DNA of 64,000 bases. Source: a virus. Taxonomy: Duplodnaviria; Caudoviricetes. Position numbers and translations under genes: made by a program. The stretch lies in IMG/VR virus record IMGVR_UViG_3300020577_004280, positions 1 to 64,000 of that record; one strand, written 5' to 3'. This document shows, one piece after another, positions 5,593 to 53,857 of this stretch; positions within the stretch are counted from its first letter, which is position 1, and each line of letters begins with the position of its first letter. The notes under the pieces are model-generated. The model did not search any database and had not been told where the DNA came from. It worked only from the letters and a program-made list of their open reading frames with translations.

Positions 5593-6111
5593 TTGAGAAT
5601 GCAATTAGCTTACGAAAATCTAACTAAGATTACACCGTTTTATTGTGGAGTATTTTCTAACTGGTATCGTTCGGGTGATTTTTATTACTATTTTCTCTTA
5701 CAGCCGCATACATATAACGTTGTAAACTGTGCCGAACAGGGTATGATGCTTAGTAAAGCTGAGTTGTTTAAAGATTATGAAACATATGATAAAATTAGAC
5801 AAGCGAAACATCCTAGAGAACAAAAAGCATTAGGTAGAACAGTTAAAGGTTTCGACCAAGCAAAATGGAACGCTGTCGCTCGACATATTATGTTCTCAAT
5901 TTGTTATCAAAAGTTTTTACAAGTCGGTATCCAAGACGATTTATTTAAAACTCGCGGTACACTTCTAGTAGAAGCCAGTCCTACAGATTGTATCTGGGGA
6001 GTAGGTTTAGCAGAAGATAACCAGGATATTTATGATAAGTCTAAGTGGCGTGGTACTAATTGGTTAGGTGAAGTTTTAACCGACGTTCGTATTTCGATGA
6101 TTGGAGCATAG
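5593..6111 (+). CDS. NADAR (YbiA-like) protein
   Basis: FSNWY, AEQGMM..KAELF.D, KALGRTV.GFD, LVEASPTDCIWGVG, WRGTNWLG. Confidence 0.92.
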   Translation: MRMQLAYENLTKITPFYCGVFSNWYRSGDFYYYFLLQPHTYNVVNCAEQGMMLSKAELFKDYETYDKIRQAKHPREQKALGRTVKGFDQAKWNAVARHIMFSICYQKFLQVGIQDDLFKTRGTLLVEASPTDCIWGVGLAEDNQDIYDKSKWRGTNWLGEVLTDVRISMIGA

Positions 6112-12605: not shown

Positions 12606-12654
12606 TACCGCTCCTATTATTATTGTAAAATGATATCACTATTACCTCATGTGT

Positions 12655-12663
12655 TTATACACG
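12655..12663 (-). promoter_or_regulatory. CGTGTATAA phage promoter-like motif
   Basis: 50 nt upstream of the minus-strand endonuclease start; same motif at 38449 and 51930. Confidence 0.55.
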
Positions 12664-12695
12664 AAAACTTCAAATTTTTATTAGAAAGACCAAAT

Positions 12696-13166
12696 ATGTT
12701 TACCTACCCTTTTGAAATGATGTCAACTAGTGTGGATGGGATAATTATCCAAGAATCCCAAGATATGACGCAAGATAAACTATTATTAATCCAACGGAAG
12801 TTTGACCCATATAAGGATATGTGGGCGTTGGTTGGTGGATTTATTGAGCAAAAAGAATTAGTTGAAGACGCCTTATTACGAGAAGTGAAAGAAGAGGTAT
12901 CGTTAGAACTCGATAGAGAAGAGATTAGCTTTTTTAAATTCGTGGATACACCCCTAAGAGACCCAAGACAACGTACAATTTCGTTTGTTTATGATGCGTA
13001 TATCACAGAAGAAAAGGCTAAAAAGGCTATTGCGGCAGATGATGCTAAGGAACTTGCTTGGTTTGATATTCGTGATATTGTTGATGGAAAGGTAAAGTTG
13101 GCGTTTGACCATGAAAAAATTCTCAACGAATATTTCAAAGAATCGGGATATCTTAATTATAATTGA
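12696..13166 (+). CDS. Nudix hydrolase (ADP-ribose pyrophosphatase-like)
   Basis: WALVGGF...ALLREVKEEVSL Nudix box, RDPR, AADDA, LAFDH; probable start MFTYPF. Confidence 0.9.
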   Translation: MFTYPFEMMSTSVDGIIIQESQDMTQDKLLLIQRKFDPYKDMWALVGGFIEQKELVEDALLREVKEEVSLELDREEISFFKFVDTPLRDPRQRTISFVYDAYITEEKAKKAIAADDAKELAWFDIRDIVDGKVKLAFDHEKILNEYFKESGYLNYN

Positions 13167-13587
13167 TGCCCAATATGGATTTATAGGATATGAACACACC
13201 AGATTGATTTATAATTTAGTTAAACACACGAAATTATTCCGAAATAAAGGATGTCATATTTGTGTAGTAGAATATGCTAATTGTGGTAAACTATTAAGTG
13301 GAATTACGAATGAATTAGTTTACTATAAAAATCAATCATTAATTACCAAATATCGTACATCGGCGGGTCCATATATTTTGAAAAATTTCTATACTCAGTT
13401 AAATCAAGTGAACTTTCATCTTATAGGTGTTAATTGGACACAGTGTTTATTTCAAACAGCTAAAGATTTAGTACAAGCTGGACAAAATGTTGTAGCATAT
13501 AGAAAAGCGTCTAATCCTAGTTATAGGAGATGTCCCAAAATTTGGGATGATTTATCTAAAAATGAAAGGTTGGTTATAAATGGCTAA
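13105..13587 (+). CDS. cysteine hydrolase (isochorismatase/nicotinamidase-like)
   Basis: IIIDAQYGF...K...GVNWTQCLFQT. Confidence 0.65.
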   Translation: MTMKKFSTNISKNRDILIIIDAQYGFIGYEHTRLIYNLVKHTKLFRNKGCHICVVEYANCGKLLSGITNELVYYKNQSLITKYRTSAGPYILKNFYTQLNQVNFHLIGVNWTQCLFQTAKDLVQAGQNVVAYRKASNPSYRRCPKIWDDLSKNERLVING

Positions 13588-14029
13588 AACATTGATTTTG
13601 ATGTGTTCTTGCTCGGGGTCAGGAAAAAGTACATTAGCAGAAAAACTCAAACATCATTATACTACAGAAGGTTATAGTGTAGTAATTTGGTCAACCGATG
13701 ACCGATTTATGGTAGAAGGTCAGTATAAATTTGACCCAGCTAAACTTGGTTTTTATCATAATAAAAATAGACAAGCTGTTGAAGATTCCATGAAGAATGG
13801 TGTTGAATACGTAATTGTCGATAATACCAATCTAACAAGGAAAGAACGTAAACCTTACATTGAACTAGCAAAAGCTAATGGATATACGGTAATGTGTATT
13901 GAACCAACAACAAGTTGGAAACATGACGCCGAAGAGTTATCGAGAAGGAATAAACATGGTGTACCACTAGAAGCTATCCAGCGTATGTTAGATAGGTACG
14001 AGCCATTTAGTAAGGAGGAATTGAATTGA
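13580..14029 (+). CDS. P-loop kinase (AAA_33 / polynucleotide kinase-like)
   Basis: SGSGKSTLA, STDD, IVDNTNL, RNKHGVP. Confidence 0.85.
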   Translation: MAKTLILMCSCSGSGKSTLAEKLKHHYTTEGYSVVIWSTDDRFMVEGQYKFDPAKLGFYHNKNRQAVEDSMKNGVEYVIVDNTNLTRKERKPYIELAKANGYTVMCIEPTTSWKHDAEELSRRNKHGVPLEAIQRMLDRYEPFSKEELN

Positions 14030-14508
14030 AAGCGTTGTGTATTATAGATGTACAAGATTATTTTATGCAACCATCTTATCCTTGGTATGATAAAGTTGTG
14101 AATAACACGCTTACTCTAATTGATAAACAAAAAAGAAAAAAACATCCGATTATTCTCGTTGAGTTTGATGACCCGGTATATGGTTCTACGATACAAGAAG
14201 TGATGGAAAAAATTGGTGATTATCCATATAATTTAGTTAGAAAGAACGACAGGTCTGGCGGATACCAAATAGAAAGTGTCGTATCTAAACTAGCTTGTCC
14301 ACGCCAAGTCATTCTAGCTGGTGTAAACTATCATCAATGTGTTGTTGCTACAGCAGAGACATTACTACGTGCTAACTTTCAAGTAGACGTATATAAAAAC
14401 GCTTCTAATCCTAAGTTTGCTACTTACGAAAAAGATAATTGGAAGAATATTAATAATCACACTGATTTAAAATTTAAATACGTAAAATCAAAGGTAAAAT
14501 CATGCTGA
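14026..14508 (+). CDS. cysteine hydrolase (isochorismatase/nicotinamidase-like)
   Basis: IIDVQDYF...K...GVNYHQCVVAT; paralog of 13105. Confidence 0.7.
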   Translation: MKALCIIDVQDYFMQPSYPWYDKVVNNTLTLIDKQKRKKHPIILVEFDDPVYGSTIQEVMEKIGDYPYNLVRKNDRSGGYQIESVVSKLACPRQVILAGVNYHQCVVATAETLLRANFQVDVYKNASNPKFATYEKDNWKNINNHTDLKFKYVKSKVKSC

Positions 14509-15599
14509 AGACTCAAGAATTCCTACGTCAGTACGATGATATAGATAAAGCTTTAGCTTCTCTGGAAGCGAAGTATGCTATCAGTAATACTTGTCATCCT
14601 ACCGATGGTCGAGTTATTCTTAATTATAGTCAGATAGATTCTCCTAAAACCCACGAGATAGTACGTGAATGTAGAGGTTTGGTATTGGATAGAAATAACA
14701 ACTGGAAGTTAGTCGCTAGAGCGTTTCCTAGATTTTTTAATTGGGAGGAAGCTGGTAAATCTACAACCGGATTATTTAAATGGAACAACTGCATATGTCA
14801 AGATAAGGAAGATGGTAGTCTGGCAATAGTTTACTTCTATAATAATGCTTGGCATTTTAATACTCGCGGTTCATTTGGTAGTGGCGAAGTCAACGGTATG
14901 GGTATTACGTGGCGTCAGCTATTTGAATTAGCGATGAAAAATACTGGATTTGATTATAGTATATTAAGTACTAATTTTACATATATATTTGAGTTATGTT
15001 CAAGATACAATAAAGTAGTTAGAGATTACCCAAACCCAATTGTATTTTTACTTAGTGTTTTCTCTGAAGAAGATGAATTAGATTGGTATGATATTAAAAC
15101 TATATACCCAGAACTAAATCCTGTTGGTGATAAATATTTTTGTGGTATTGATAGAGTAAATGAATTTCTCAAAAAACATTCAGAAACAGACCCAACATTT
15201 GAAGGTGTAGTTCTACGCGATAAGAATAATTTACGTTTTAAGGTGAAATCAATCAAGTACGTGGAGTTACACAGATTACACAATAACGGTAACTTGGCTA
15301 CACCTAAGAACTTAATTGGTTTTATCATGGGTGGCGAAGAGGATGAAATTATCGCTTATTGGCCAAATCTAGAACCAACTATTTTAGATATGAAAGCTAA
15401 GATTACCGATGCGTATACAGAATTAGAAGCGGCGTGGGAATCTCATAAAAATATTGAAAATCAGAAAGAATTCGCAGAAAAGGTCTTGACAGCGACAAAG
15501 TTTTCTGGTATGCTATTTACTGCACGCAAGACAGGTAGGTCAATTTCTGATATATGGCGGGAGTCTAAGGAAGTTATTTTGAAGAAACTATTTACTTGA
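14502..15599 (+). CDS. RNA ligase, T4 Rnl1-like
   Basis: ECRGLVL, AFPRFFN, KEDGSL, TRGSF, FEL, EGVV, FKVKS. Confidence 0.88.
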   Translation: MLKTQEFLRQYDDIDKALASLEAKYAISNTCHPTDGRVILNYSQIDSPKTHEIVRECRGLVLDRNNNWKLVARAFPRFFNWEEAGKSTTGLFKWNNCICQDKEDGSLAIVYFYNNAWHFNTRGSFGSGEVNGMGITWRQLFELAMKNTGFDYSILSTNFTYIFELCSRYNKVVRDYPNPIVFLLSVFSEEDELDWYDIKTIYPELNPVGDKYFCGIDRVNEFLKKHSETDPTFEGVVLRDKNNLRFKVKSIKYVELHRLHNNGNLATPKNLIGFIMGGEEDEIIAYWPNLEPTILDMKAKITDAYTELEAAWESHKNIENQKEFAEKVLTATKFSGMLFTARKTGRSISDIWRESKEVILKKLFT

Positions 15600-44699: not shown

Positions 44700-45670
44700 A
44701 ATGTTGTAGTTGGGAGGAAAAACAAACTATGTTCTTTTTTGGTAAAATTAATTACGCTAAACAATTACGAAATAAATTAAACTTGATACAAAATGGTGAT
44801 GATGTATGTATCAAATATAAATATAGGGATGGTCGAATAGAGGAAATTACTGGTTCTAAAGGAAGGAATTCATCTGGCTTCAGACTGCTTACTCAAGGTG
44901 ATAATGACTATAAAGAGTATAGTTACGATAATATAATTGAATTAGTATCATGGAAAGCATCAACATGATAGAATGTATACCGTTTTTACCGTGGATAATT
45001 TCGATACCAATTTTACGTTACTTGTACTCTCTTGGATACTTTGAAAGTGAAAAACAAGACCCAGCTAGTGAACAAATATTTGTATCTATGTTGTGGATGT
45101 TGTCACCATTAGTTATAATTGGTTGTATTATGTATTTATCAGCTATCAGTTTATTTTCTGTGATTTCTACACCAATGAAGTTACCAACCTTTACCACCAA
45201 AATTAAATATAAGGAATAAATTATGGATATTAAATTTAAAAGTTATGACCCAATACATAAATCAGCCGCGTCATTTGGTTTATCACTACGAAAAGCGGAT
45301 TTATTTAACAATCCGGTTGCCAGTGATACTGATTTAGTTTATAAAGGATATAAATTATGTGGACAGCTCATAACTAATGGTAATACATATACATTAGAGG
45401 TATTTAACAACGTTAATACACTTCACGCGTTTGCTTCAGATATTGAAGCTACAACTGACAAAAAAGTTATATTTAAGATTGAAGACTGATGAAAATCAAT
45501 TATAAGGTTACAAGCAGAGATTCAGAATATTTGAATTTACTATCCAAAATTCTTGAAAACTTCAGTTTACTATTAATTCCAGTATATATTTGTCTATTAG
45601 CAATAATAATACTATATTGGAAAATAATATTAGCTACATTAATTGTTGTAGTAGTAATTAAACAATTTAT

Positions 45671-45793
45671 ACCGAGATAGCTCAGGTAGCAGAGCAACAA
45701 AGTCCAGTGAATTATTCATTATTTGCCAGTAATGGATGCGGAATAATCTACATATCAATTTGTAGGTCGTAGGTGCGAGTCCTACTCTCGGTT
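45671..45793 (+). ncRNA. tRNA-Y RNA chimera (Y-like module in place of anticodon loop), copy 1
   Basis: 7-bp acceptor ACCGAGA/TCTCGGT, D arm, T arm GTAGG-TGCGAGT-CCTAC; ACAAA/TTTGT stem encloses ATTATTC-ATTATTTG-CCA-GTAA-TGG-ATGCG-GAATAAT-CTACAT. Confidence 0.75.
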
Positions 45794-45846
45794 TTATTAC
45801 ATTGTCCTTTTAGGAAACTTAAACCATCGCTAAGCGATGTAGAGGA

Positions 45847-47427
45847 ATGAAAATCATGGTAAACAAATCAATGTTCAAAACTAACACACAAACAAAGCTT
45901 GTAAAGAACGAAGCTGGTGGTAACGCCTTCAGTCTTTCTGACGAAAATGCTCTATGTCAAATGGTTGTAACCAACTGTTTTAATGGAGTATATTACTCAA
46001 GTGCCGAAGAACTATTAAATAACGTGAAAAACATCCTAAAAGGATGTAGTTCACAATTAGTAGCTAAAGCCGCTGTGTATGGCCACGAGCAAGGTAGAAT
46101 GAAGGATATGCCAGCGTATCTACTAGCTGTTTTAGCTGCTCGCGGCGAAACAAAACTAGTTAACAGAATCTTCAATAGAGTTATTACTAACGCTAAAATG
46201 TTGTGTAACTTTGTACAAATTATTCGTAGCGGTGAAACTGGTCGTAAGTCATTTGGTTCTTCAATTAAGAAACTAATCCAAAATTGGCTAAATAATAGAA
46301 CACCAGATAGATTGTTTGATGACGCAGTTGGTCACGCCAAACCATCGTTAGCAGATGTAATTAAGATGGTTCACCCAAAACCATCTACTCCAGCACACGA
46401 AGCTATGTTTGCTTACCTAATCGGTAAGGATTATAATTGGGAAGTTATGCCAGAAAGAGTACGTCAATACGAAATCTTTAAGAAAACATCTGAAGGAAGT
46501 GTACCACAAGTAGATTTTCGTCTTTTGTCCAATCTGAAGTTATCTGACCTTCAATGGCGTGAAGTAGCTCTTAATATGAGATGGGATACATTACGACGTA
46601 ACCTAAACACAATTGGTCGTAATAATGTTCTCACTGATGATAAAACAGTAAAACTACTAGCTCGTAAACTAGGAGATGGAGAAACTGTACGGAAAGTGAA
46701 AGCTTTCCCATACGAATTACTTACAACTTATCTAAACGCTACAGACTTACCACAAACTCTTAAAAACTCACTACACGACGCTCTAGAAGCTTCTGTAGAT
46801 AATATTCCTGATTTCGGTATTAAGACTGTAGTATGTGTAGATACATCTGGTTCAATGTCCTCACCAATTACTGGTAGTCGTGGTACTGCTACTAGCAAGG
46901 CAACTTGTGTACAAGTAGCATCAGTTATCGCGGCATCAATATTGCGTAAGAATAGCGAACACACTTTAGTATTACCGTTTGATACATCTGTTCACTCTAT
47001 TCAAATTGATGGTAGAGATACTATCATGACTAACTCCCAAAAATTAGCTAGAAATGGTGGTGGTACAGATTGTAGTTGTGCATTACGTCACCTTAACCAC
47101 ACAGACCATAAGGCTGATTTGGTAATTTATGTATCTGATAATATGAGTTGGGCAGATTATGCTAGTAATCGAGGAGGATGTTGGTGGGCTGGCGGGTATA
47201 ATAATATCACCGGAACTAAAGCTGAATGGCAAAGCTATAAAAAACGTAACCCAAACGCCAAATTAGTTCTTATTGACCTACAACCATATACTACAACTCA
47301 AGTTAGTGATAGTAAGGATGTACTTAATATTGGCGGTTGGAATGATGCTCAATTTACAGCAATCGAAAGATTCGTAAATGGAGAAAAATTAGATTTTACC
47401 AAGATAATAAAAGAAACCACTATCTAA
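45847..47427 (+). CDS. rsr: Ro60/Rsr TROVE-domain RNA-binding protein
   Basis: NEAGG.AF, DMPAYLLA, GRKSFG, LADVIKMVHPKP, LRRNL, FPYELL, vWA MIDAS DTSGSM, GGGTDC, SD, IGGWND. Confidence 0.93.
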   Translation: MKIMVNKSMFKTNTQTKLVKNEAGGNAFSLSDENALCQMVVTNCFNGVYYSSAEELLNNVKNILKGCSSQLVAKAAVYGHEQGRMKDMPAYLLAVLAARGETKLVNRIFNRVITNAKMLCNFVQIIRSGETGRKSFGSSIKKLIQNWLNNRTPDRLFDDAVGHAKPSLADVIKMVHPKPSTPAHEAMFAYLIGKDYNWEVMPERVRQYEIFKKTSEGSVPQVDFRLLSNLKLSDLQWREVALNMRWDTLRRNLNTIGRNNVLTDDKTVKLLARKLGDGETVRKVKAFPYELLTTYLNATDLPQTLKNSLHDALEASVDNIPDFGIKTVVCVDTSGSMSSPITGSRGTATSKATCVQVASVIAASILRKNSEHTLVLPFDTSVHSIQIDGRDTIMTNSQKLARNGGGTDCSCALRHLNHTDHKADLVIYVSDNMSWADYASNRGGCWWAGGYNNITGTKAEWQSYKKRNPNAKLVLIDLQPYTTTQVSDSKDVLNIGGWNDAQFTAIERFVNGEKLDFTKIIKETTI

Positions 47428-47448
47428 CGATAGTGTATTATGGAAAAT

Positions 47449-47513
47449 TCCGAATGCTCGTGTCGATTACATCGAAAATGATTTCACCAAAAAATCGCAC
47501 AATTTTTGTCGGA
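47449..47513 (+). ncRNA. Y-RNA-like hairpin, copy 2
   Basis: TCCGA-ATGC-TCG-TGTCGAT-TACAT...ATCGCACA-ATTTTTG-TCGGA; directly after TROVE. Confidence 0.75.
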
Positions 47514-47600
47514 TTTATCTTTTAAACTACGTTTTCATCAGAAAACGGTGTATAATACTGTGTAAGATGTTAGTTAATTAAAACGGAGATTAGAAGTATC

Positions 47601-47759
47601 ATGAAGAAAATTATTAGTTTAGTATGTGTTTTAGCTATTGTCACATCAGTTGGAATTGCTGAAGCTGGTAAAAAGGGTTGTCGTAAAGGTAAGTGTTCTG
47701 CGCAAACCTGTGCTTGCGGTGTAAACTGTCAATGCGGCGATAATTGTAATTGTAAGTAA
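47601..47759 (+). CDS. secreted Cys-rich metallothionein-like peptide (52 aa)
   Basis: signal peptide then GKKGCRKGKCSAQTCACGVNCQCGDNCNCK; GGAG RBS. Confidence 0.65.
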   Translation: MKKIISLVCVLAIVTSVGIAEAGKKGCRKGKCSAQTCACGVNCQCGDNCNCK

Positions 47760-47804
47760 TAATTAGAGTTTTGCTGTTCTCAATTATCAAAAACGGCAAT
47801 TTAT

Positions 47805-47876
47805 CGCGGGTGGTAGGTCAGCATCTTCTAACCCTCATAAGGTTAGCAAACGTCGGGCGGCACGACGACTCCGCAA
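47805..47876 (+). tRNA. tRNA-Met(CAU), initiator-like
   Basis: CGCGGG/CTCCGCA with C1:A72 mismatch, CTAACC-CTCATAA-GGTTAG; atypical D/T loops. Confidence 0.65.
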
Positions 47877-47877
47877 T

Positions 47878-47944
47878 TTCTCAAATGCTTTAGTAAACTA
47901 CATAGGCTTTTATCTAAATAACGTTTACTTGATTTTGTTGAGAA
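47878..47944 (+). ncRNA. Y-RNA-like hairpin, copy 3
   Basis: TTCTCAA-ATGC-TTT-AGTAAAC-TACAT...GTTTACT-TGATTTTG-TTGAGAA. Confidence 0.7.
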
Positions 47945-47950
47945 TTATAC

Positions 47951-48021
47951 AGCCAGTGGCAGGTAGGCATCTGGAAACCTCCCATAAGGGTTTTTAAGGA
48001 ATTCGATTTTCCAACTGGCTA
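47951..48021 (+). tRNA. tRNA-Met/Ile(CAU)
   Basis: AGCCAGT/ACTGGCT, AAACCT-CCCATAA-GGGTTT, T loop TTCGATT. Confidence 0.7.
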
Positions 48022-48132
48022 CTAATCTTTGAGAGAAAGTATGACAAAATATACACTAGATGAATTAACGAACGCTGTAAAAATAGTTTTAGTATTTCTG
48101 CTGATATTGGCAAAAACAAAAATATAGTAAAA

Positions 48133-48207
48133 GGGCTATTGGCACAGCGGCAACTGCAATAGATTTACATTCTATCCCAATCGTAGGTTCGAGTCCTACA
48201 TAGCCCA
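48133..48207 (+). tRNA. tRNA-Val(UAC)
   Basis: GGGCTAT/ATAGCCC, ATAGA-TTTACAT-TCTAT, GTAGG-TTCGAGT-CCTAC. Confidence 0.88.
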
Positions 48208-48210
48208 TTT

Positions 48211-48337
48211 TGGTCGGTAGTTTAAGTAAAATGTACAAAGTTTAACTACCATCTCTTGCTGAGGAATCAGATGCTCGGCTAGTTTACATATTCTTCTGGT
48301 AAAGGAAAGATGTGGGTATCAAATCCCACCCGACCAC
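48211..48337 (+). ncRNA. tRNA-Y RNA chimera, copy 4
   Basis: TGGTCGG/CCGACCA acceptor, T arm GTGGG..CCCAC; insert AACTACC-ATCTCTTG-CTGA-GGAA-TCAG-ATGCTC-GGCTAGTT-TACAT. Confidence 0.7.
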
Positions 48338-48728
48338 TATAATTAAGTTATGGCAACTAGCCATATAGGATTTTATCATTGTCAGAGACAATAAAGGAAA
48401 AGAAAATGCAAAAAGTAGACATGTCGGTTAAGGGACAAAATCGTAGGGTTTATCTAGAGAAGGCTATTAATAAGAATAGCTGGCTAGCTAGAGTATATGT
48501 AGGAAGCTCTGTAGTATCTGGAAAATTAGTAAAATATTCCAATGGTGCCAAGAGATTCTATCCATTAGGTAAAAATGCTAATCTAATTTAGACTTACCCG
48601 CCATGTGTGGGAAAAGATGTCGCACCGTCTCTAATACAGGCGAGGCGAATTTAATAAAACGGTTGGTGACGGTTATCCAAAATTAGCTAATGCTCCGGCT
48701 TCAAAACTAATTTAAAAACTGAAGATAT

Positions 48729-48816
48729 TCCAGTGGGGGTACTAACGGTAGTATCGTTCGGCTGTTAACCGAAAATGGGAGAAATCCCTATGCAAGTTCG
48801 AGTCTTGCCGCTGGAG
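48729..48816 (+). tRNA. tRNA-Asn(GUU) with long variable arm
   Basis: TCCAGTG/CGCTGGA, TTCGG-CTGTTAA-CCGAA, V arm GGGA-GAAA-TCCC, GCAAG-TTCGAGT-CTTGC. Confidence 0.85.
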
Positions 48817-48818
48817 CT

Positions 48819-48885
48819 AATCTGAATACTCATAAGAAGTACATATCTGTTAAATATCAATCCTTCTTATATCTCTTGTCAGATT
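48819..48885 (+). ncRNA. Y-RNA-like hairpin, copy 5
   Basis: AATCTGA-ATAC-TC-ATAAGAAG-TACAT...CTTCTTAT-ATCTCTTG-TCAGATT. Confidence 0.75.
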
Positions 48886-48909
48886 CTTCTAAATACATAG
48901 TATAATAAA

Positions 48910-49770
48910 ATGAGTCAAAACCCAAAACTTACCAAGGAGATATTATCTCCATTAATTAATAAAGGTCTGAATGGAAGAGAAATAGCAGAAACTCTAGGTT
49001 ATTCTATATCTTATATACAACATCTAATGAGCAGATTAAATCTTAAATGTATAAGTAAAGATAAATATAAAAAAGATAAAATTGAAAAAGCCGTAAAAGA
49101 TTCGTTGTGTTTTAAAGATGTCTGTAGAAATCTGGATATTTCCCACCAAGGTGGAGCCTATATTAAACTAAAAATTCTTATTAAAAAATATAACATAGAT
49201 TGCTCCCATTTTCTTGGTAGTTCAGCATACTCTGGTAAAAGAAGAAAAAATTATCAGCCCGCCAAAAACGTGTTGCACGATAAGCATGAATTTAGGGTAT
49301 CATCAGAACAATTGAGAAGCCAAATGCTTGCCAACGGATTTGAATACATATGCGTAGAATGTGGGCAACAACCAGTTTGGAATAATAAACCTCTAACATT
49401 GCATATTGACCATATAAACGGTAACAATTGCGATAATCGAAAAGAAAATTTAAGATTTTTGTGTCCACACTGTCATAGCCAAACACCTAATTTTGGAAGT
49501 AAAAATTCTAAAAGAAATAAGAAAATATATTATTGTTTATGTGGCAATAAGAAAGAGAAAAAGTCAATTTCTTGCCAACAATGTTGTGTATTAAGAAAAA
49601 ATGACAAAATTCCTAAAAAAGAAGAATTAGAAAATCTTATTTGGGTAATACCCTCTACACATATAGCTAAAAAATATGGAGTGAGTGATAGAGCTATCGG
49701 AAAATGGTGTGTTAAATATAATATTGCTAAACCACCAAGAGGGTATTGGTTGAAAAATAAAGTGGTCTGA
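48910..49770 (+). CDS. HNH homing endonuclease
   Basis: CVECG...LTLHIDHINGNNCDNRKENLRFLCPHCHSQT; HTH at both ends. Confidence 0.9.
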   Translation: MSQNPKLTKEILSPLINKGLNGREIAETLGYSISYIQHLMSRLNLKCISKDKYKKDKIEKAVKDSLCFKDVCRNLDISHQGGAYIKLKILIKKYNIDCSHFLGSSAYSGKRRKNYQPAKNVLHDKHEFRVSSEQLRSQMLANGFEYICVECGQQPVWNNKPLTLHIDHINGNNCDNRKENLRFLCPHCHSQTPNFGSKNSKRNKKIYYCLCGNKKEKKSISCQQCCVLRKNDKIPKKEELENLIWVIPSTHIAKKYGVSDRAIGKWCVKYNIAKPPRGYWLKNKVV

Positions 49771-49834
49771 GCCGGTATGGTTATGGCTTCCGCTTGAAAT
49801 CCGGAAAAAATAAGTTCAATTCTTATAGACCACA
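49762..49834 (+). tRNA. tRNA-Phe(GAA)
   Basis: GTGGTCT/AGACCAC, TTCCG..TTGAAAT..CGGAA, ATAAG-TTCAATT-CTTAT. Confidence 0.7.
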
Positions 49835-50030
49835 CTATTAGCAAAAGTAACCAACTATCGCTATTGGAGTAGACGGTGTTGTAGATTTGCTAACTCTTAT
49901 TTTACAATTAATTTCGGAGTAGTTAACCGATACGTGTTAGTTTGTAAAATATTTTCCAAGTTTAGTAAAATTTGGTGGTGGGAAGGTGCAAACACCCTCA
50001 TGTTCGGTCTAACATTAAAATAGACCATAT

Positions 50031-50103
50031 AGTGTCGAAGATTTGATAGTAAATCGGGTGGTCTGGAGCCATCAGACTGTGAGTGCAACTCTCACCGACG
50101 CTA
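50031..50103 (+). tRNA. tRNA-Pro(UGG), atypical loop
   Basis: AGTGTCG/CGACGCT, GGTGG-TCTGGAG-CCATC, GTGAG-TGCAACT-CTCAC. Confidence 0.65.
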
Positions 50104-50105
50104 CT

Positions 50106-50180
50106 ATCCGAATGTCAGTTGACGATTACATATTAAACTTTTATTTTAATCAAAAATATCGTTAACAATCCTTGTCGGAT
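50106..50180 (+). ncRNA. Y-RNA-like hairpin, copy 6
   Basis: ATCCGA-ATGT-CA-GTTGACGAT-TACAT...ATCGTTAAC-AATCCTTG-TCGGAT. Confidence 0.78.
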
Positions 50181-50189
50181 TCATTTTAA

Positions 50190-50262
50190 GGGTCATTGGT
50201 GTAATCAGGAACACGATAGTCTTGCAAACTATAGTCATCGGAGCATAACCGATATGTATCCA
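50190..50262 (+). tRNA. tRNA-Ala(UGC)
   Basis: GGG..TCC acceptor with G3:U70, ATAGT-CTTGCAA-ACTAT. Confidence 0.75.
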
Positions 50263-50271
50263 CTCAAAATA

Positions 50272-50372
50272 TGTGAATGCCTGATAGGTTTACATAGCTA
50301 AATGGTAAAGCAAAGGACACAATCCTCGATTGTAGGTTCAAATCCTACTAACAACTTATCAATTTTGTCACA
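50272..50372 (+). ncRNA. Y-RNA-like RNA with tRNA D/anticodon/T domain, copy 7
   Basis: TGTGA-ATGC-C-TGATAGGTT-TACAT-[GCT-AAATGGTAA-AGC; AGGA-CACAA-TCCT; GTAGG-TTCAAAT-CCTAC]-AACTTATCA-ATTTTG-TCACA. Confidence 0.8.
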
Positions 50373-50455
50373 ACGAAGTCTTCCAAGTGCGATTCTTGAT
50401 AGAGCGACCTAAACGACAAATGTATTGAAAAACTTATAAAAAATTAAGGGAAACA

Positions 50456-50767
50456 ATGGGATATTATACGCGATATAAACTTGAGGTTTCAGAACAACCA
50501 GAAGATTTACCAGCTAATTTTCCACAAACTTATGGAGAACGATTCTTCATAGAATTACTTAGTGGCTGTGCAGAAGAAATTAAGTGGTACGAACACGATG
50601 AAGATATGACATCTATTTCGGAACAATATCCAGATATTCTATTTACCTTATATGGAGAAGGCGAAGAGTCAGAAGATATATGGGTTAAGTATTATAAAGG
50701 CGGTAAATGTCAGGTTGAAAGAGCTAAAATAGTTTTTGGTGAATTCAATCAAGAGAAATTAAAATAA
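50456..50767 (+). CDS. conserved phage protein
   Basis: MGYYT...KWYEH..DM..IS..YP...F.L.GEGEE..D.W. Confidence 0.65.
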   Translation: MGYYTRYKLEVSEQPEDLPANFPQTYGERFFIELLSGCAEEIKWYEHDEDMTSISEQYPDILFTLYGEGEESEDIWVKYYKGGKCQVERAKIVFGEFNQEKLK

Positions 50768-51021
50768 ACACAGACTGTCTAACGGAGTTTGGTGGATTAG
50801 ATGAAAGATGTTTATGCTAATGAGAGGTTTTGCTCATGACTTATCATTAGATGAAGCAATGCAGGCTGTCGATAATGATAAATTCGTACAGAAGTTTAAA
50901 ACAAAGTTACCAGAAGTTGATAGTCTTAGACTTTTGGAAGGAACTTTTGAAGCCGTAATGTTAAAAGTCTCTATGAGATTTAGACCAAAAATGTTTGACC
51001 TAACATTAAAATAGGTCGTTA

Positions 51022-51096
51022 CACCCATTCGTATAGCTGGTCTGTTTACACTACTCTGATAAGGTAGAGAAGAACGTTCGAGTCGTTCATGGGTGA
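51022..51096 (+). tRNA. tRNA-Ile(GAU)
   Basis: CACCCAT/ATGGGTG, CTACT-CTGATAA-GGTAG, GAACG-TTCGAGT-CGTTC. Confidence 0.88.
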
Positions 51097-51182
51097 TTTT
51101 GTAGCAAACTTATCAACTACGTTGGTGAATAGCCAACAAATGACTTACGGTGGGTGGAAAAGTTGGTAAAAAACCGTACATT

Positions 51183-51269
51183 GGCTTAGTTCCACATAAC
51201 TGTCTGTAAAACAGTTGGCGTTATAATTATTGTGGTGGATGCTGTAGTGGTTCGATTCCTCCTAAGCCA
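51183..51269 (+). tRNA. tRNA-Tyr(GUA)-like, lacking a D arm
   Basis: GGCTTAG/CTAAGCC, 9-nt linker, ACTGT-CTGTAAA-ACAGT, ~30-nt variable region, TTCGATT T loop. Confidence 0.65.
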
Positions 51270-51879
51270 GATTTTTAATTTTTATTTCAATTATTTGAGA
51301 AACTTTTGACAATGCTAAATCGATTTGATTTTGTTTAGATGTTAAGTCTGTAATCACAATTAAATCAATATTCTCACGTTGACAAAGTAATTGTTTTTGA
51401 TAATCTCTATATTGTATATGCTTCAGTTTATCTTCACCATACATAGGTTGGTAGTGTATTTTACCATTCCATTCTATAGCTAGTTTTAGTTCTGGAATAT
51501 ATATGTCTAGTTCATAACCGTCCAAAATTTGTCTATTATTGAATACTAACTCTAAATCTGGAAATAATTTTTGTAGTTCTTCTCCAAATTTAATTTCAAT
51601 TTTTGAACGATTGCTGCTTTTCCTAAATTGATTATTATATTTAGCAGAACATGACGCGGAACAAAATACAAATCCACATTTAGACCTAGCTATAGCTCTT
51701 TTTTCAGCTAAAAAGATATTATCACAAAATCCGCATTTTACATTTACTCGCTTATTTTTATGTTTATTTGAACAATCTCTTGAACAGTATGTTTTTGCAT
51801 AAACCTTGTAATCTTTTGTTCTTACAAATAACTTATTGCAAAAATCACAGTTAATTTCACAAGTTTCACGTTTTCTCAT
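51262..51879 (-). CDS. zinc-finger PD-(D/E)XK (Vsr/DUF559-like) endonuclease
   Basis: CxxC/YCSxxC repeats; ELDIYIPELKLAIEWNGKIHY...RD..K. Confidence 0.8.
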   Translation of the reverse strand: MRKRETCEINCDFCNKLFVRTKDYKVYAKTYCSRDCSNKHKNKRVNVKCGFCDNIFLAEKRAIARSKCGFVFCSASCSAKYNNQFRKSSNRSKIEIKFGEELQKLFPDLELVFNNRQILDGYELDIYIPELKLAIEWNGKIHYQPMYGEDKLKHIQYRDYQKQLLCQRENIDLIVITDLTSKQNQIDLALSKVSQIIEIKIKNLA

Positions 51880-51924
51880 GGTTGACCCCTGTTTTCTATA
51901 AAAAGCGACTCACGTTTCCCACCA

Positions 51925-51938
51925 GTGTATTATACACG
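51925..51938. promoter_or_regulatory. palindromic GTGTATTATACAC promoter-like motif
   Basis: reads CGTGTATAAT on the minus strand 51 nt upstream of the endonuclease and GTGTATTAT on the plus strand before tRNA-Trp. Confidence 0.55.
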
Positions 51939-51954
51939 AAAATAATCAAACTAA

Positions 51955-52028
51955 ACCCTCCGGTAGTGTAATGATTAACACAATAGTCTCCAAAACTATA
52001 ATCTCTCGTGAAAAGCGAGACGAGGGTG
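51955..52028 (+). tRNA. tRNA-Trp(CCA)
   Basis: ACCCTC.G/CGAGGGT, ATAGT-CTCCAAA-ACTAT. Confidence 0.8.
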
Positions 52029-52114
52029 TTTTCAGCCAATAAGGCTGTATTAAGTTGGATGATAATTTCATAAGTAACGTTGGAGATGTTGACAGAAGAA
52101 CTAAATTTATTAAT

Positions 52115-52190
52115 AACTAAGTGCTAACATACAAGGCGTGTGTTCGGTCTGCAAAACCGAAAGCTTAGAGTTCGATTCTCTACTTAGTCT
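52115..52190 (+). tRNA. tRNA-Cys(GCA)
   Basis: ACTAAG/CTTAGT, U73, TCGGT-CTGCAAA-ACCGA, TAGAG-TTCGATT-CTCTA. Confidence 0.8.
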
Positions 52191-52211
52191 TCATCGCGAT
52201 TAGCGATATAT

Positions 52212-52500
52212 GGGACCGTAAGGTTTTCGACTGGTAAGATAGTTAGCTAAATGGCAAGTAGAAGAACTCATGATGGCTTCTTTAAAAACATGAGACAAAC
52301 CAAATGCAAAATTTGCTCTAGCCGCTTAGTCGGATAGGTTGCTAGTGTCCGAAGAAACACTTTCTGACTCAGATAATTCTGAACATCATATCGGCTGTAA
52401 TAAGAGGGTTTGTTATTTAACCCAACCTAATAAATAACTAAACTTGTAGATGTTTTTCTGACGGCTATACTAGGACGGGGTTTCAATACCCCCGGTTCCA
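52212..52500 (+). ncRNA. ssrA: tmRNA, tag AKFALAA*
   Basis: GGGACCG..TTCGAC 5' end; GGACGGGG-TTTCAATA-CCCC-CGGTTCCA 3' end; tag ORF 52306-52329. Confidence 0.9.
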
Positions 52501-52513
52501 CTTAAGGAGAATT

Positions 52514-52876
52514 ATGATTGATTCAGATTTAAACGGTTTTTATATCAAACCTTGGGGTCGTTATGTAGACCATTTGCGTAGTAAGGAGTTAGTTATCAAG
52601 ACACTAACTATCGTTGGCGGAAATAAAATCTCCAATCAAAAACATCTCTTAAGACATGAAAAGTGGTATATCATGTCTGGTACAGGGCAAGCATTACTAC
52701 AATACGGAAACTCAATATTAAGCATTGAGTTAAAACCCGGTGTCATATTTAATGTTTCAGAAGAAACGTGGCATCAAGTCAAAGCTGATGAGGATTCAAC
52801 TCTAGTTGTGTTAGAAATCCAAGAAGGTGAAGATTGTAACGAAGATGATATCGTCCGTAAACCTGACGTTCTATAA
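52514..52876 (+). CDS. cupin, mannose-6-phosphate isomerase type II C-terminal-like
   Basis: KPWG.Y, S.QKH..R.EKW, WH, EIQ.G..C.EDDIVR. Confidence 0.85.
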   Translation: MIDSDLNGFYIKPWGRYVDHLRSKELVIKTLTIVGGNKISNQKHLLRHEKWYIMSGTGQALLQYGNSILSIELKPGVIFNVSEETWHQVKADEDSTLVVLEIQEGEDCNEDDIVRKPDVL

Positions 52877-52888
52877 TGAGGTATAATC

Positions 52889-53086
52889 ATTAGTCGTTCT
52901 CGAAAAGGCCACAAAGGATGTGGCTACGATTATTGGTCACGCAGACCATATAGTAGTAGTTATGGATACGGTCCAGATATTAAAAAACTATGTCATCGGG
53001 CTGAAAGAATTCAGGCAAAAGAGATAGTCAATCGTGAGATTGACGAGATGGAAGAAAACGAGTACAACCGCGAAGATTTCGCGTAA
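52889..53086 (+). CDS. small basic protein with probable ATT start
   Basis: GAGGT RBS then ATT-AGT-CGT (xSRSRKG...YDYWSRRP...), 65 codons. Confidence 0.45.
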   Translation: MSRSRKGHKGCGYDYWSRRPYSSSYGYGPDIKKLCHRAERIQAKEIVNREIDEMEENEYNREDFA

Positions 53087-53122: not shown

Positions 53123-53857
53123 ATGACAAAACTAAATCAGATTATTGCGTTAGTAAATGGTAAAAAGACCGCCGCTACCAAAGCCTTAACCGAAGTATAC
53201 AAGAAATTAGATAAGTCAGAATTATTTAATGGTATTACACGTAAGTATACACCGTTAGATGATAACGACGCTGAAAAGCTTCCGTCTGAAGCTAAGAATA
53301 TTCAGTTTACTGTTGGCGAAGCTATTAAGGAAGCCCGTAATATTATTACAGAATTATACGATATTACTCTCACACAAGACGTTGCCAACACTGAAGCTAA
53401 GGCTGATATTGTAGTTGATGGTAATGTTATCGCTGCCAATGTTCCGGTAACATATCTACTTTTCCTTGAAAAACAAGTTACAGACCTACGTACATTCGTT
53501 GGTAAGTTGCCAACGCTAGATGTTGCAGATGTTTGGAACTATGATACAAATAAGGATTGTTATGTTACTTCTCCTATTATGAGCAATCGCTCTAAGAAGG
53601 TTTACCGTAACCACGTTAAGGCAGAAGCTACGGAACATCATCCAGCACAAGTAGAAGTTTATACAGAAGACGTTAAGGTTGGTGAATGGCAAACTGTTAA
53701 ACTCAGTGGTGCAGTTCCAGCCAAAACTAAGAATGAAATGTTACTGAAGTTGACCAAGCTAGACGACGCAATCAAGATTGCTCGCGAACAAGCCAATTCA
53801 ATTGAAGTAAATAGTGCAAAAATTGGCGAAAATATCGCTAACTATGTTTTCGCTTAA
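53123..53857 (+). CDS. conserved coiled-coil protein (MTKLNQII family)
   Basis: MTKLNQIIA, VPVTYLLFLEKQ, LPTLD, ATEHHPAQV, SGA.P, AIK.AREQAN. Confidence 0.75.
   Translation: MTKLNQIIALVNGKKTAATKALTEVYKKLDKSELFNGITRKYTPLDDNDAEKLPSEAKNIQFTVGEAIKEARNIITELYDITLTQDVANTEAKADIVVDGNVIAANVPVTYLLFLEKQVTDLRTFVGKLPTLDVADVWNYDTNKDCYVTSPIMSNRSKKVYRNHVKAEATEHHPAQVEVYTEDVKVGEWQTVKLSGAVPAKTKNEMLLKLTKLDDAIKIAREQANSIEVNSAKIGENIANYVFA

What the first reader, a model, noticed from the sequence alone, without database searches (positions are those of the whole stretch)
47449..50180. Bare Y-like hairpins carry tRNA anticodon loops (Lys, Asn, possibly Glu): candidate decoys for anticodon nucleases
Seen in the apical regions: copy 6 has ATTAAA-CTTTTAT-TTTAAT (6-bp stem, 7-nt Lys UUU loop, 50132-50150). 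Copy 5 has ATAT-CTGTTAA-ATAT (48843-48857), the same loop as the adjacent tRNA-Asn. Copy 3 has CTTTTAT (47907-47913) on a weak stem. Copy 2 has TG-ATTTCAC-CA, a Glu-UUC-like loop on only 2 bp. No true tRNA-Lys or tRNA-Glu gene is in this window. Established: tRNA-Lys(UUU) is cleaved by PrrC and PARIS AriB, and QUN tRNAs including Asn are cleaved by colicin E5-type nucleases. Inference: Ro60-held anticodon stem-loops may titrate or trap host anticodon nucleases, or recruit modification or repair enzymes. That would be an RNA-based anti-defence system.
Basis: partly seen in the sequence, partly recalled or inferred. Interest (0 to 1): 0.88.

Follow-up and report, generated by a model that had tools for sequence, protein, structure and literature searches.

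The report
Anticodon-arm look-alikes on phage Y RNAs
Four short hairpin RNA genes next to a phage Ro60 gene are minimal Y RNAs, and two of them end in a loop built like a tRNA anticodon loop; this feature recurs far above chance in related phages, but its use (a bait for tRNA-cutting defence enzymes is one idea) is untested.

Summary
The four hairpins are real, at the stated coordinates. They belong to a large family of Ro60-linked Y RNAs. My covariance model found 121 and 116 matches in two sets of Ro60 loci, all on the Ro60 strand, with strong covariation.

The anticodon-loop claim holds for two of the four.
- Copy 5 (CUGUUAA on 4 bp) fits, and copy 6 (CUUUUAU on 6 bp) fits less strictly. 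They match a recurrent class: a 7-nt C-U-N-N-N-A-A loop on the hairpin right after the conserved UUACAU motif.
- That class occurs in 15 of 105 non-redundant Y RNAs (0.56 expected from shuffles). In a second set it occurs in 10 of 97 (0.34 expected).
- The middle triplet varies widely: GUU, UUU, UGU, UGA, CCA, GCA, GUA, CAU, GAU and others.
- Copies 2 and 3 do not fit. Their best folds give 4- and 6-8-nt loops, and the loop length changes in relatives.

In the long tRNA-like Y RNAs this hairpin sits where an anticodon arm would.

The decoy idea is untested. In its favour, the phage carries a kinase plus two RNA ligases, and a similar idea is in print for YrlA. Against it, triplets are not held between close relatives and there is no Lys/Asn bias in the second set.

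This scan has noted similar anticodon-arm RNAs beside Ro60-like DUF2828 genes on other phage DNA.

The parts
45847..47427 (+). Ro60 (TROVE + vWA) protein gene, 526 aa
   Evidence: Pfam vWA_Ro60 at 2.8e-11 and TROVE at 2.4e-4. More than 6,600 homologues, many named '60 kDa SS-A/Ro ribonucleoprotein' by their source.
47447..47515 (+). Copy 2: minimal Y RNA directly after Ro60. The apex folds as GAAA-AUGA-UUUC (47474-47485) and is not anticodon-like.
   Evidence: R1 42.6 bits. Minimum-free-energy fold. The L003 orthologue (5900-5968) has a different apex.
47878..47944 (+). Copy 3: minimal Y RNA following a tRNA-like element (about 47803-47875). Its U-rich apical loop is 6-8 nt long.
   Evidence: R1 41.5 bits. 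Fold. Loop length differs in L003:6337-6403 and L004:2371-2433.
48819..48885 (+). Copy 5: minimal Y RNA starting 2 nt after tRNA-Asn (48729-48817). Its apex, AUAU-CUGUUAA-AUAU at 48843-48857, is an anticodon-arm look-alike.
   Evidence: R1 51.3 bits. The same loop sits on covarying stems in L004, L006, L009 and L027. The stem is too weak to appear in the minimum-free-energy fold.
50105..50181 (+). Copy 6: minimal Y RNA between a tRNA-like element (50031-50104) and a tRNA-Cys-like element (50190-50262). Its apex is AUUAAA-CUUUUAU-UUUAAU at 50132-50150.
   Evidence: R1 33.2 bits although it was not in the seed. The minimum-free-energy fold shows a 6-bp stem and a 7-nt loop. The L003:7283-7359 orthologue has the loop UUUCAAA.
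50270..50374 (+). Copy 7: the same Y handle enclosing a D arm, a short hairpin and a T arm in ordinary tRNA order. It belongs to the same family but is not one of the bare hairpins.
   Evidence: R1 29.4 bits, not in the seed. An Rfam tRNA hit at 50288-50356 lies inside it. Fold.
48211..48337 (+). Copy 4: a tRNA-Thr(GGU)-like body in which UUUACAU leads straight into a 5-bp stem with loop CUGGUAA, followed by a T arm. It shows where the handle joins tRNA parts.
Evidence: Read from the sequence and the fold. R1 does not detect it because the handle is permuted.
48729..48817 (+). tRNA-Asn(GUU) with a long variable arm, immediately upstream of copy 5
   Evidence: ARAGORN. Rfam tRNA 26.8 bits, below the cut-off. 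Fold.

Best explanation
The four hairpins are minimal (YrlB-like) Y RNAs, the partner RNAs of the phage Ro60 encoded just upstream.

They share a handle: a covarying 7-bp lower stem, GAAUGC on the 5' side, AUYYYUUG on the 3' side, an 8-10-bp upper stem and the UUACAU motif. By analogy with known Y RNAs, this handle is what Ro60 binds.

They lie in a tRNA array with tRNA-like genes next to them (an upstream neighbour ends 1-3 nt before copies 3, 5 and 6; a downstream one starts 7 and 9 nt after copies 3 and 6). tRNA end-processing would therefore release them (inferred).

The hairpin after UUACAU is the counterpart of a tRNA anticodon arm. In the long YrlA-type relatives it is followed by a 4-7-nt variable-loop-like spacer and a T arm.

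In copies 5 and 6, and in about 12% of the family, this arm keeps the canonical loop architecture (C32, U33, three free letters, A37, A38) while the triplet and the stem change.

My reading is that the Ro60 particle presents this arm to some protein that reads anticodon loops generically. Which protein (a nuclease, a modification enzyme or another) is not known. Copies 2 and 3 carry other caps.
For: Family and strand:
- R1 finds 121 hits in 81 sources and 116 hits in 80 independent metagenome loci, all on the Ro60 strand.
- Covariation: 82% of cells are paired against 54% in shuffles; 520 cells change on both sides against 178; the lower stem is 93% paired.

Loop statistics:
- CU-NNN-AA 7-nt loops on stems of at least 3 bp right after UACAU occur in 15 of 105 Y RNAs, against 0.56 +/- 0.74 in 1000 dinucleotide shuffles (maximum 4).
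- The second set gives 10 of 97 against 0.34 (maximum 2).
- Other hairpins in the first set of loci (the 81 sources): 0.9% CUNNNAA. True tRNAs there: 49%.
- Among 51 true 7-nt loops: C32 59%, U33 53%, A37 67%, A38 71%. CU..AA occurs 15 times against 7.5 expected if columns were independent (0 of 5000 shuffles reach 15).
- Carriers do not cluster by handle sequence. Mean identity is 0.519 between carriers and 0.525 between carriers and non-carriers.

Position of the hairpin:
- It is followed by spacers such as AAGGU, GAGGU or CGAGGYY and then a T arm in L008, L035, L049, L225 and others.
- ARAGORN calls L049:5437-5510 a tRNA-Ile.
- In window copy 4, UUUACAU precedes a 5-bp stem with loop CUGGUAA.

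Literature:
- The GNCGAAN0-1G and YUAY motifs and the 'V' stem-loop (PMC4201824).
- The model that Y RNAs arose from dimeric tRNA transcripts (bioRxiv 10.1101/312249).
Against: - No RNA data: no RNA run holds this stretch, so expression, ends and Ro60 binding are all inferred.
- Most family members (roughly 75-88%) have other apical loops, so the anticodon-like arm is not needed for Y RNA function as such.
- In the closest relative, L003, copy 5's loop has C at position 33 (CCAUUAA). Two of its five differences over 63 nt fall in the loop, so constraint in this lineage is weak.
- Copy 5's stem is four A-U pairs and is not predicted by the minimum-free-energy fold.
- Chen et al. 2014 place this hairpin as the variable arm, and in the Salmonella YrlA crystal structure the handle itself takes the anticodon-stem position.
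- The shuffle tests do not fully remove shared ancestry.
Confidence: 0.5

Rival explanations
1. Anti-defence decoy. Ro60-held anticodon arms compete with host tRNAs for anticodon nucleases such as PrrC, RloC, AriB or colicin E5/D-like enzymes, or trap them. This protects translation during infection.
For: - The loops have the canonical architecture that such nucleases read. AriB recognises the anticodon stem-loop (PMC11464382).
- The phage carries a PNK-like kinase next to an Rnl1-like ligase, plus an Rnl2-like ligase, which suggests that its hosts attack tRNAs.
- Several different apices per genome, and triplet swapping between relatives, fit a panel of baits in an arms race.
- Hughes et al. 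2020 proposed competitive inhibition by YrlA (PMC7790460).
- A Ro60-like phage protein counters the Ppl defence system (PMC11482910).
Against: - There is no direct test.
- The triplets show no bias towards known nuclease targets in the second set (GUA, GGA, CAU, UGA, UGU, GAU, CCA, GUU, GGU).
- The excess of GUU and UUU in the first set can be explained by A+T richness.
- L003 has lost U33 in its copy 5 orthologue.
- Salmonella YrlA was not cleaved by the SOS-induced nuclease (PMC7790460), and that RNA has no anticodon loop.
- A stoichiometric decoy would have to be very abundant.
Confidence: 0.2
2. Evolutionary leftover. Y handles and tRNA parts recombine often in these tRNA arrays. The anticodon-like apex is then simply what remains of a tRNA anticodon arm. 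It serves only as a stable cap and decays neutrally into other loops.
For: - The same window holds three other handle-tRNA chimeras with different wiring (copies 1, 4 and 7).
- The triplets are as varied as a tRNA repertoire.
- Near-miss loops exist: CCAUUAA, UUGUUAA, CUUUUAU, CCUUUAU.
- Most apices are not anticodon-like.
- The published model derives Y RNAs from dimeric tRNA transcripts (10.1101/312249).
Against: - CUGUUAA is kept on four different stems (AUAU, CAUU, AUUA, AUCA) in phages whose Ro60 proteins are only 43-72% identical. This argues for constraint on the loop.
- Copy 5's stem bears no likeness to the anticodon stem of the adjacent tRNA-Asn, so it is not a recent copy.
- C32, U33, A37 and A38 are enriched jointly, not just singly.
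Confidence: 0.3
3. Substrate or recruiter of tRNA modification enzymes. C-U-N-N-U-A-A matches the loop context of t6A37, and U-G-U in a 7-nt loop matches that of tRNA-guanine transglycosylase (both recalled from the literature, not checked here). Modification would either stabilise the RNA or tie up the enzyme.
For: - 11 of the 15 loops in the first set are CUNNUAA, against 0.12 expected.
- Salmonella YrlA is modified by TruB and DusA (PMC4201824).
Against: - The phage has no TGT or QueC gene.
- In the second set only 5 of 10 loops are CUNNUAA.
- There are no modification data.
Confidence: 0.1
4. Chance. These are A+T-rich apical loops that merely happen to look like anticodon loops.
For: - The window is A+T rich (the hairpins are 27-36% G+C).
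- Copies 2 and 3 are indeed not anticodon-like.
- Copy 5's stem is weak.
Against: - Two independent sets show about 27-fold and 29-fold excess over dinucleotide shuffles.
- The second set is G+C-richer and shows the same pattern.
Confidence: 0.03

Closest known systems
Bacterial and phage Y RNAs of the YrlA/YrlB type (Chen et al. 2014, PMC4201824; Rfam RF02553)
   Same: - Encoded beside Ro60, several per locus.
- A CGAA(N)G motif near the 5' end.
- A YUAY motif (here UUAC, CUAC or GUAC) opening the next hairpin.
- Long forms with a T arm, a closed acceptor stem and a D arm.
- Short forms that are long hairpins with a small loop, as described for YrlB and Yrn2.
   Different: - The Rfam YrlA model does not recognise them (best 15 bits, cut-off 69).
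- Here the 3' strand of the handle is conserved too (AUYYYUUG).
- The hairpin after UUACAU, called 'V' in the paper, often has a canonical anticodon-type loop. That paper does not describe this, and Salmonella YrlA is said to lack an anticodon loop (10.1101/312249).
Deinococcus radiodurans Yrn1 (Chen et al. 2014)
   Same: A Y RNA that can be drawn with an 'anticodon arm' having a 5-bp stem.
   Different: - The Yrn1 loop has 6 nt, and a different arm order is proposed.
- Here the loops have 7 nt with C32, U33, A37 and A38, and the triplets vary.
Thermus phage phiLo Ro60 with Yrl1 and Yrl2 (PMC12135203)
   Same: A phage Ro60 with phage-encoded Y-like RNAs that carry a CGAA motif. It forms complexes with host PNPase in vitro, and an anti-defence role is proposed.
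   Different: - No anticodon-like apex is reported.
- The proteins are distant.
- That proposal is about hijacking PNPase, not about mimicking tRNA anticodon arms.
Phage tRNAs that escape or neutralise anticodon nucleases (T5 tRNA-Lys against PARIS AriB, PMC11464382; van den Berg et al. 2023, eLife e85183, cited in PMC11482910)
   Same: Phage-encoded RNAs from tRNA arrays whose anticodon stem-loop decides the outcome of a host tRNA-cleaving defence.
   Different: - Those are whole, working tRNAs that replace the cut host tRNA and resist cleavage.
- The RNAs here have no acceptor end and could act only as baits or tethers.
Partner RNAs of Ro60-like DUF2828 phage proteins with a 'CAGCAA' handle
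   Same: Small RNAs beside a ring-shaped Ro60-type protein gene in phage tRNA clusters. They have a constant handle and an anticodon-arm-like apex, and the triplet changes between relatives.
   Different: - The protein family differs (DUF2828, against TROVE + vWA_Ro60 here).
- The handle sequence differs.
- I did not check those notes.

Membership tests
Y RNA (Ro60 partner RNA, YrlA/YrlB type) | Encoded within about 2 kb of a Ro60 gene, on the same strand | tested here: met
   Copy 2 starts 20 nt after the Ro60 stop codon, and copies 3, 5 and 6 lie within 2.8 kb. All 237 R1 hits in 161 sources are on the Ro60 strand.
Y RNA (Ro60 partner RNA, YrlA/YrlB type) | 5' motif GNCGAAN0-1G (vertebrate GGUCCGA) | tested here: inconclusive
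   Copies 2 and 6 have UCCGAAUG, so the core CGAAUG is met but the first G is not. Copy 3 has CUCAAAUG and copy 5 has UCUGAAUA. Across the family the fourth-last to last positions are G (92 of 106) and A (98 of 106).
Y RNA (Ro60 partner RNA, YrlA/YrlB type) | A stem formed by the 5' and 3' ends, supported by covariation | tested here: met
   The 7-bp lower stem is 93% paired and all 7 pairs show changes on both sides. The covariation score is 0.746, against 0.219 in shuffles and at most 0.155 when partners are slid.
Y RNA (Ro60 partner RNA, YrlA/YrlB type) | Conserved YUAY motif opening the next hairpin | tested here: met
   UACAU is invariant in the 37-sequence alignment. The window copies read UUAC, CUAC, GUAC and UUAC.
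Y RNA (Ro60 partner RNA, YrlA/YrlB type) | Match to Rfam YrlA (RF02553) at its gathering score | tested here: not met
   The best match is 15 bits (cut-off 69) at 48153-48265. No Y-type family appears at E up to 10.
Y RNA (Ro60 partner RNA, YrlA/YrlB type) | Bound and stabilised by Ro60 | not testable with these tools
   This needs pull-down or gel-shift experiments.
tRNA anticodon stem-loop (as a mimic) | 7-nt loop with U33 and a purine at position 37 | tested here: met
   Met for copy 5 (CUGUUAA) and copy 6 (CUUUUAU). Not met for copy 2 (4-nt loop in the best fold) or copy 3 (6-8-nt loop).
tRNA anticodon stem-loop (as a mimic) | 5-bp stem closing the loop | tested here: inconclusive
   Copy 5 has 4 A-U pairs and copy 6 has 6 A-U pairs. 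Family members have 3-5 bp.
tRNA anticodon stem-loop (as a mimic) | Loop architecture kept in relatives while the stem covaries | tested here: inconclusive
   Kept in L004, L006, L009 and L027 (CUGUUAA) and in L005 and L013 (CUUUUAA). The closest relative, L003, has CCAUUAA, so U33 is lost.
tRNA anticodon stem-loop (as a mimic) | The position in the tRNA-like module corresponds to the anticodon arm | tested here: inconclusive
   In long forms the hairpin is followed by a 4-7-nt spacer and a T arm, which fits an anticodon arm. The published model calls it the variable arm (PMC4201824).
Decoy or inhibitor of anticodon nucleases | Binds to, or is cut by, an anticodon nuclease and protects tRNA or infection | not testable with these tools
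   There is only context: the kinase and two RNA ligases in the window.

The most novel reading that the evidence does not exclude
Phage Ro60 particles carry a changeable panel of anticodon-arm baits. Each phage encodes several Y RNAs with the same Ro60 handle but different anticodon-loop look-alikes. These capture or compete for host enzymes that read anticodon loops, above all the tRNA-cutting defence nucleases. Ro60 shields the bait or hands the captured partner to an exonuclease. That would be an RNA-protein anti-defence system working by molecular mimicry of tRNA anticodon arms.
Probability: 0.2. Interest if true: 0.85.

Novelty: new variant of a known kind. Interest (0 to 1): 0.62.

Why it matters
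What the variable end of bacterial and phage Y RNAs binds has been an open question since these RNAs were found.

Here about one in eight phage Y RNAs ends in a faithful anticodon-loop architecture with a free-running triplet, and some consist of nothing else. This narrows the search to proteins that read anticodon loops, and it gives short, easily made RNAs to test.

It also supports the view that Y RNAs arose from tRNAs and still exchange parts with them.

If the bait reading is right, it adds an RNA-based counter-defence to the known ways in which phages cope with tRNA-cutting immunity (repair enzymes and replacement tRNAs).

Tried and rejected
- Rfam, at gathering score and at E up to 10 over 45000-53000: no Y-type family. 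RF02553 alone gave 15 bits.
- blastn of the region against cultured phages: only HNH endonuclease fragments matched.
- The first Ro60 search of IMG/VR with a single protein found nothing. The search with a protein alignment worked.
- Two Ro60 homologue contigs (P0002, P0012) came back without DNA.
- My first two pairing scripts were too loose or off by one base and were replaced.
- A DNA-pattern scan of IMG/VR for the handle gave mostly chance matches. Only 6 of the 80 loci returned (of 120 matching stretches) held R1 hits, and 3 of those hits lie on contigs already held, so I did not use it for replication.
- Picking the apical hairpin by minimum free energy alone is noisy for A-U stems, and in long forms it picks T loops. 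I used an explicit stem-loop enumeration instead.
- No RNA holder was listed among public runs.
- Laying contigs from four DNA runs showed identical sequence over the hairpins, so there was no population variation to read.
- No TGT, QueC, RtcB or CCA-adding enzyme gene is in the contig.
- R1 found no hit in the Myxococcus phage Mx1 Ro60 region (L086), the closest cultured relative at 45% Ro60 identity.
- Matching loop triplets to neighbouring tRNA genes: only the window's Asn pair matched. The loci are too short for this test to mean much.


Full report
**What is there**

The window comes from a 154-kb IMG/VR virus contig, about 82% complete. At 45847-47427 it encodes a 526-aa Ro60 protein (Pfam vWA_Ro60 2.8e-11, TROVE 2.4e-4). 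More than 6,600 homologues exist, and many are named '60 kDa SS-A/Ro ribonucleoprotein' by their source. The closest cultured relative is Myxococcus phage Mx1, at 45% identity.

Downstream lies a dense array of RNA genes.
- ARAGORN calls tRNAs for Val, Asn, Phe and Ile.
- Rfam adds further tRNA hits and a tmRNA at 52212-52503.
- Between them sit the hairpins of the finding.

Neither the window nor the whole contig has a tRNA-Lys or tRNA-Glu call.

**The hairpins are Y RNAs**

The copies share the following, in 5' to 3' order:
- a 7-bp lower stem
- GAAUGC (variants AAAUGC and GAAUAC)
- an 8-10-bp upper stem
- an invariant UACAU
- an apical part
- an A-rich 3' strand
- the upper-stem partner
- AUYYYUUG
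- the lower-stem partner

I fetched 6 contigs carrying the closest Ro60 homologues and 73 IMG/VR loci with Ro60. From 37 short copies I built a covariance model, R1.

In the window, R1 finds copies 5, 2 and 3. It also finds copy 6 (33 bits) and the tRNA-like copy 7 at 50270-50374 (29 bits), neither of which was in the seed. Nothing comparable appears elsewhere.

Over 1.05 Mb of loci it finds 121 hits, every one on the Ro60 strand. The lower stem is 93% paired with compensatory changes at all seven pairs. The covariation score is 0.746, against 0.219 in shuffles and at most 0.155 when partners are slid.

The motifs correspond to features described for bacterial and phage Y RNAs by Chen et al. 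2014 (PMC4201824):
- the GNCGAAN0-1G motif
- the YUAY motif that 'begins the V loop'

The Rfam YrlA model itself does not recognise these RNAs (15 bits against a cut-off of 69).

**The four apical loops, one by one**

- **Copy 5** (48843-48857). AUAU-CUGUUAA-AUAU begins two bases after UACAU. The identical loop sits on different stems in L004 (CAUU/AAUG), L006 and L027 (AUUA/UAAU) and L009 (AUCA/UGAU). The Ro60 proteins of these phages are 43-72% identical to the window's. The stem is too weak to appear in the minimum-free-energy fold.
- **Copy 6** (50132-50150). A 6-bp A-U stem with loop CUUUUAU is the predicted fold. The loop has U rather than A at position 38.
- **Copy 3.** The best fold gives a U-rich loop of 6-8 nt. 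Its orthologues have 7 nt (L003) and 6 nt (L004).
- **Copy 2.** The fold is GAAA-AUGA-UUUC. The 'Glu-like' AUUUCAC on 2 bp becomes UAUUUCAA in L003.

In the closest relative, L003 (Ro60 88% identical), copy 5's loop reads CCAUUAA and copy 6's reads UUUCAAA. The 7-nt size is kept, but U33 (copy 5) and the triplets are not.

**Is the anticodon likeness more than chance?**

For every non-redundant Y RNA I took the 30 nt from the CAU of UACAU. I then asked whether a hairpin with at least 3 bp and a 7-nt loop of a given form starts there.

| Pattern | First set (of 105) | Shuffle expectation | Second set (of 97) | Shuffle expectation |
|---|---|---|---|---|
| C-U-N-N-N-A-A | 15 | 0.56 +/- 0.74 (max 4 of 1000) | 10 | 0.34 +/- 0.55 (max 2 of 500) |
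| C-U-N-N-U-A-A | 11 | 0.12 | 5 | 0.05 |
| Y-U-N-N-N-R-N | 25 | 4.6 | 28 | 3.4 |

An earlier regex-based set gave 13 of 106 against 0.50. The second set consists of 80 JGI metagenome loci with Ro60, where R1 found 116 hits, again all on the Ro60 strand.

Further controls:
- Among 27,546 other 7-nt 'loops' on 4-bp stems in the first set of loci, 0.9% are CUNNNAA. Among 230 true tRNAs in those loci, 49% are.
- Among the 51 Y RNAs with a true 7-nt loop at this place, C32 is 59%, U33 53%, A37 67% and A38 71%, while positions 34-36 are mixed. The four flanking letters occur together 15 times, against 7.5 expected if columns were independent (0 of 5000 shuffles reach 15).

The triplets are many:
- First set: GUU x5, UUU x3, UGA x2, UGU, CGU, AUU, CCA, GCA.
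- Second set: GUA, GGA, CAU, UGA x2, UGU, GAU, CCA, GUU, GGU.

Several loops are letter-for-letter what I recall as the usual loops of tRNA-Trp (CUCCAAA), Cys (CUGCAAA), Tyr (CUGUAAA), Met (CUCAUAA) and Ser (CUUGAAA).

Carriers do not form a group by handle sequence. Their nearest neighbours are mostly non-carriers, often from the same genome. Mean identity is 0.519 between carriers and 0.525 between carriers and non-carriers. The counts therefore do not come from one inherited lineage.

**Where the hairpin sits**

The long Y RNAs of these phages have the YrlA order: T arm, closed acceptor stem, D arm. In them the hairpin after UUACAU is followed by 4-7 nt such as AAGGU, GAGGU or CGAGGYY and then the T arm. 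Examples are L008:6523, L035:4689, L049:5436 and L225:5034. This is the spacing of an anticodon stem, variable loop and T stem.

Two further points fit this:
- ARAGORN calls the 5' half of one such RNA a tRNA-Ile(GAU) (L049:5437-5510).
- In the window's own copy 4 (48211-48337), UUUACAU runs straight into UUCUU-CUGGUAA-AGGAA, then AGAU and a T arm.

Chen et al. 2014 call this hairpin 'V' (the variable arm). In the Salmonella YrlA crystal structure the handle takes the anticodon-stem position, and that RNA 'lacks the anticodon loop' (10.1101/312249).

The same preprint cites a model in which Y RNAs arose from dimeric tRNA transcripts. The anticodon arm of the first tRNA would then lie exactly here. 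My data fit that model. They add that in phages the arm is often still intact, and that in the 'bare' RNAs it is the only tRNA part left.

**How it probably works**

Shown: the family, its strand, its covariation, its link to Ro60, and the enrichment and position of the anticodon-type loop.

Inferred:
- Ro60 binds the handle.
- tRNA end-processing releases the RNAs. The upstream tRNA-like genes end 1-3 nt before copies 3, 5 and 6, and downstream ones start 7 and 9 nt after copies 3 and 6.
- The arm is presented to a protein that reads generic anticodon-loop features.

Points in its favour:
- The window encodes a PNK-like kinase (13580-14029) next to an Rnl1-like ligase (14502-15599), plus an Rnl2-like ligase (3563-4561). 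This is the kind of kit T4 uses against PrrC.
- Hughes et al. [quoted passage not shown]
- A Ro60-like protein of phage Bas63, encoded upstream of tRNA genes, counters the Ppl defence system (PMC11482910).

Points against it:
- Triplets turn over between close relatives.
- The second set shows no leaning towards known nuclease targets.
- 75-88% of the Y RNAs have other caps.
- Nothing was measured.

The main rival is that these arms are leftovers of frequent handle-tRNA recombination. The chimeric copies 1, 4 and 7 in this very window show that such recombination happens. However, the retention of CUGUUAA on four different stems, and the joint enrichment of positions 32, 33, 37 and 38, argue for some constraint.

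**Comparison and novelty**

Already known:
- phage Ro60 with Y RNAs (PMC4201824, PMC12135203)
- tRNA mimicry by Y RNAs
- the competitive-inhibitor idea

I did not find the following in the papers I searched:
- a canonical anticodon-type loop at this position
- its recurrence with many triplets
- minimal Y RNAs that carry nothing else

Other notes of this scan describe similar anticodon-arm RNAs beside Ro60-like DUF2828 genes, with a different handle, in other phages. I did not check those notes.

I class the finding as a new variant of a known kind. The function remains open.

Noticed in passing
window 3563-4561, 13580-14029, 14502-15599: An RNA repair kit: an Rnl2-like RNA ligase (PF09414 plus a PHA02142 OB fold), a PNK-like P-loop kinase (AAA_33/KTI12) flanked by two isochorismatase-like ORFs, and a T4 Rnl1-like ligase. 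A NUDIX gene lies at 12630-13166. No RtcB or CCA-adding enzyme is in the contig.
   Followed up: partly
window 50270-50374 and L003:7440-7540: A Y handle encloses a D arm, a short hairpin (AGGA-CACAA-UCCU) and a T arm in ordinary tRNA order. This is not the permuted YrlA order. Rfam scores the inside as tRNA (39.9 bits).
   Followed up: partly
window 48211-48337 and 45671-45793: Two further chimeras. One is a tRNA-Thr(GGU)-like body with a hairpin-closed, permuted Y handle between the D region and the anticodon arm. The other is a tRNA frame whose anticodon loop is replaced by a permuted handle. I only folded them and read them by eye.
   Followed up: partly
window 48910-49770: An ORF like an HNH plus helix-turn-helix homing endonuclease lies between copy 5 and tRNA-Phe, and its end overlaps the tRNA by 9 nt. 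It is absent at this place in L003, which instead has a LAGLIDADG ORF directly after Ro60 (L003:5200-5898).
   Followed up: no
window 48729-48817: tRNA-Asn(GUU) with a long variable arm (GGGA-GAAA-UCCC), which is unusual for tRNA-Asn. Its Rfam tRNA score is below the cut-off (26.8 bits).
   Followed up: no
window 47803-47875, 47951-48022, 50031-50104, 50190-50262: tRNA-like genes that ARAGORN misses at default settings: two with a CAU triplet, one Pro-like (UGG) with C at position 33, and one Cys-like (GCA) with an odd T loop.
   Followed up: partly
window 52212-52503 and 53123-53857: A phage-encoded tmRNA (Rfam 86 bits) and, just beyond it, a DUF7873 protein (5e-98). Other notes of this scan link DUF7873 to a double permuted tRNA-mimic RNA.
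   Followed up: no
window 47601-47759 and L003:6054-6215: A small conserved ORF (52-53 aa) with a hydrophobic N-terminus and a Cys-rich tail lies between copies 2 and 3. It is preceded by a conserved hairpin and a TATAAT box.
   Followed up: no
L017:10544-11024: Four bare Y RNAs in tandem; the last three are identical and 142 nt apart.
   Followed up: no
L049:5437-5510: ARAGORN calls a tRNA-Ile(GAU) that is in fact the 5' half of a YrlA-type Y RNA (L049:5436-5571). tRNA finders can mis-annotate these RNAs.
   Followed up: partly
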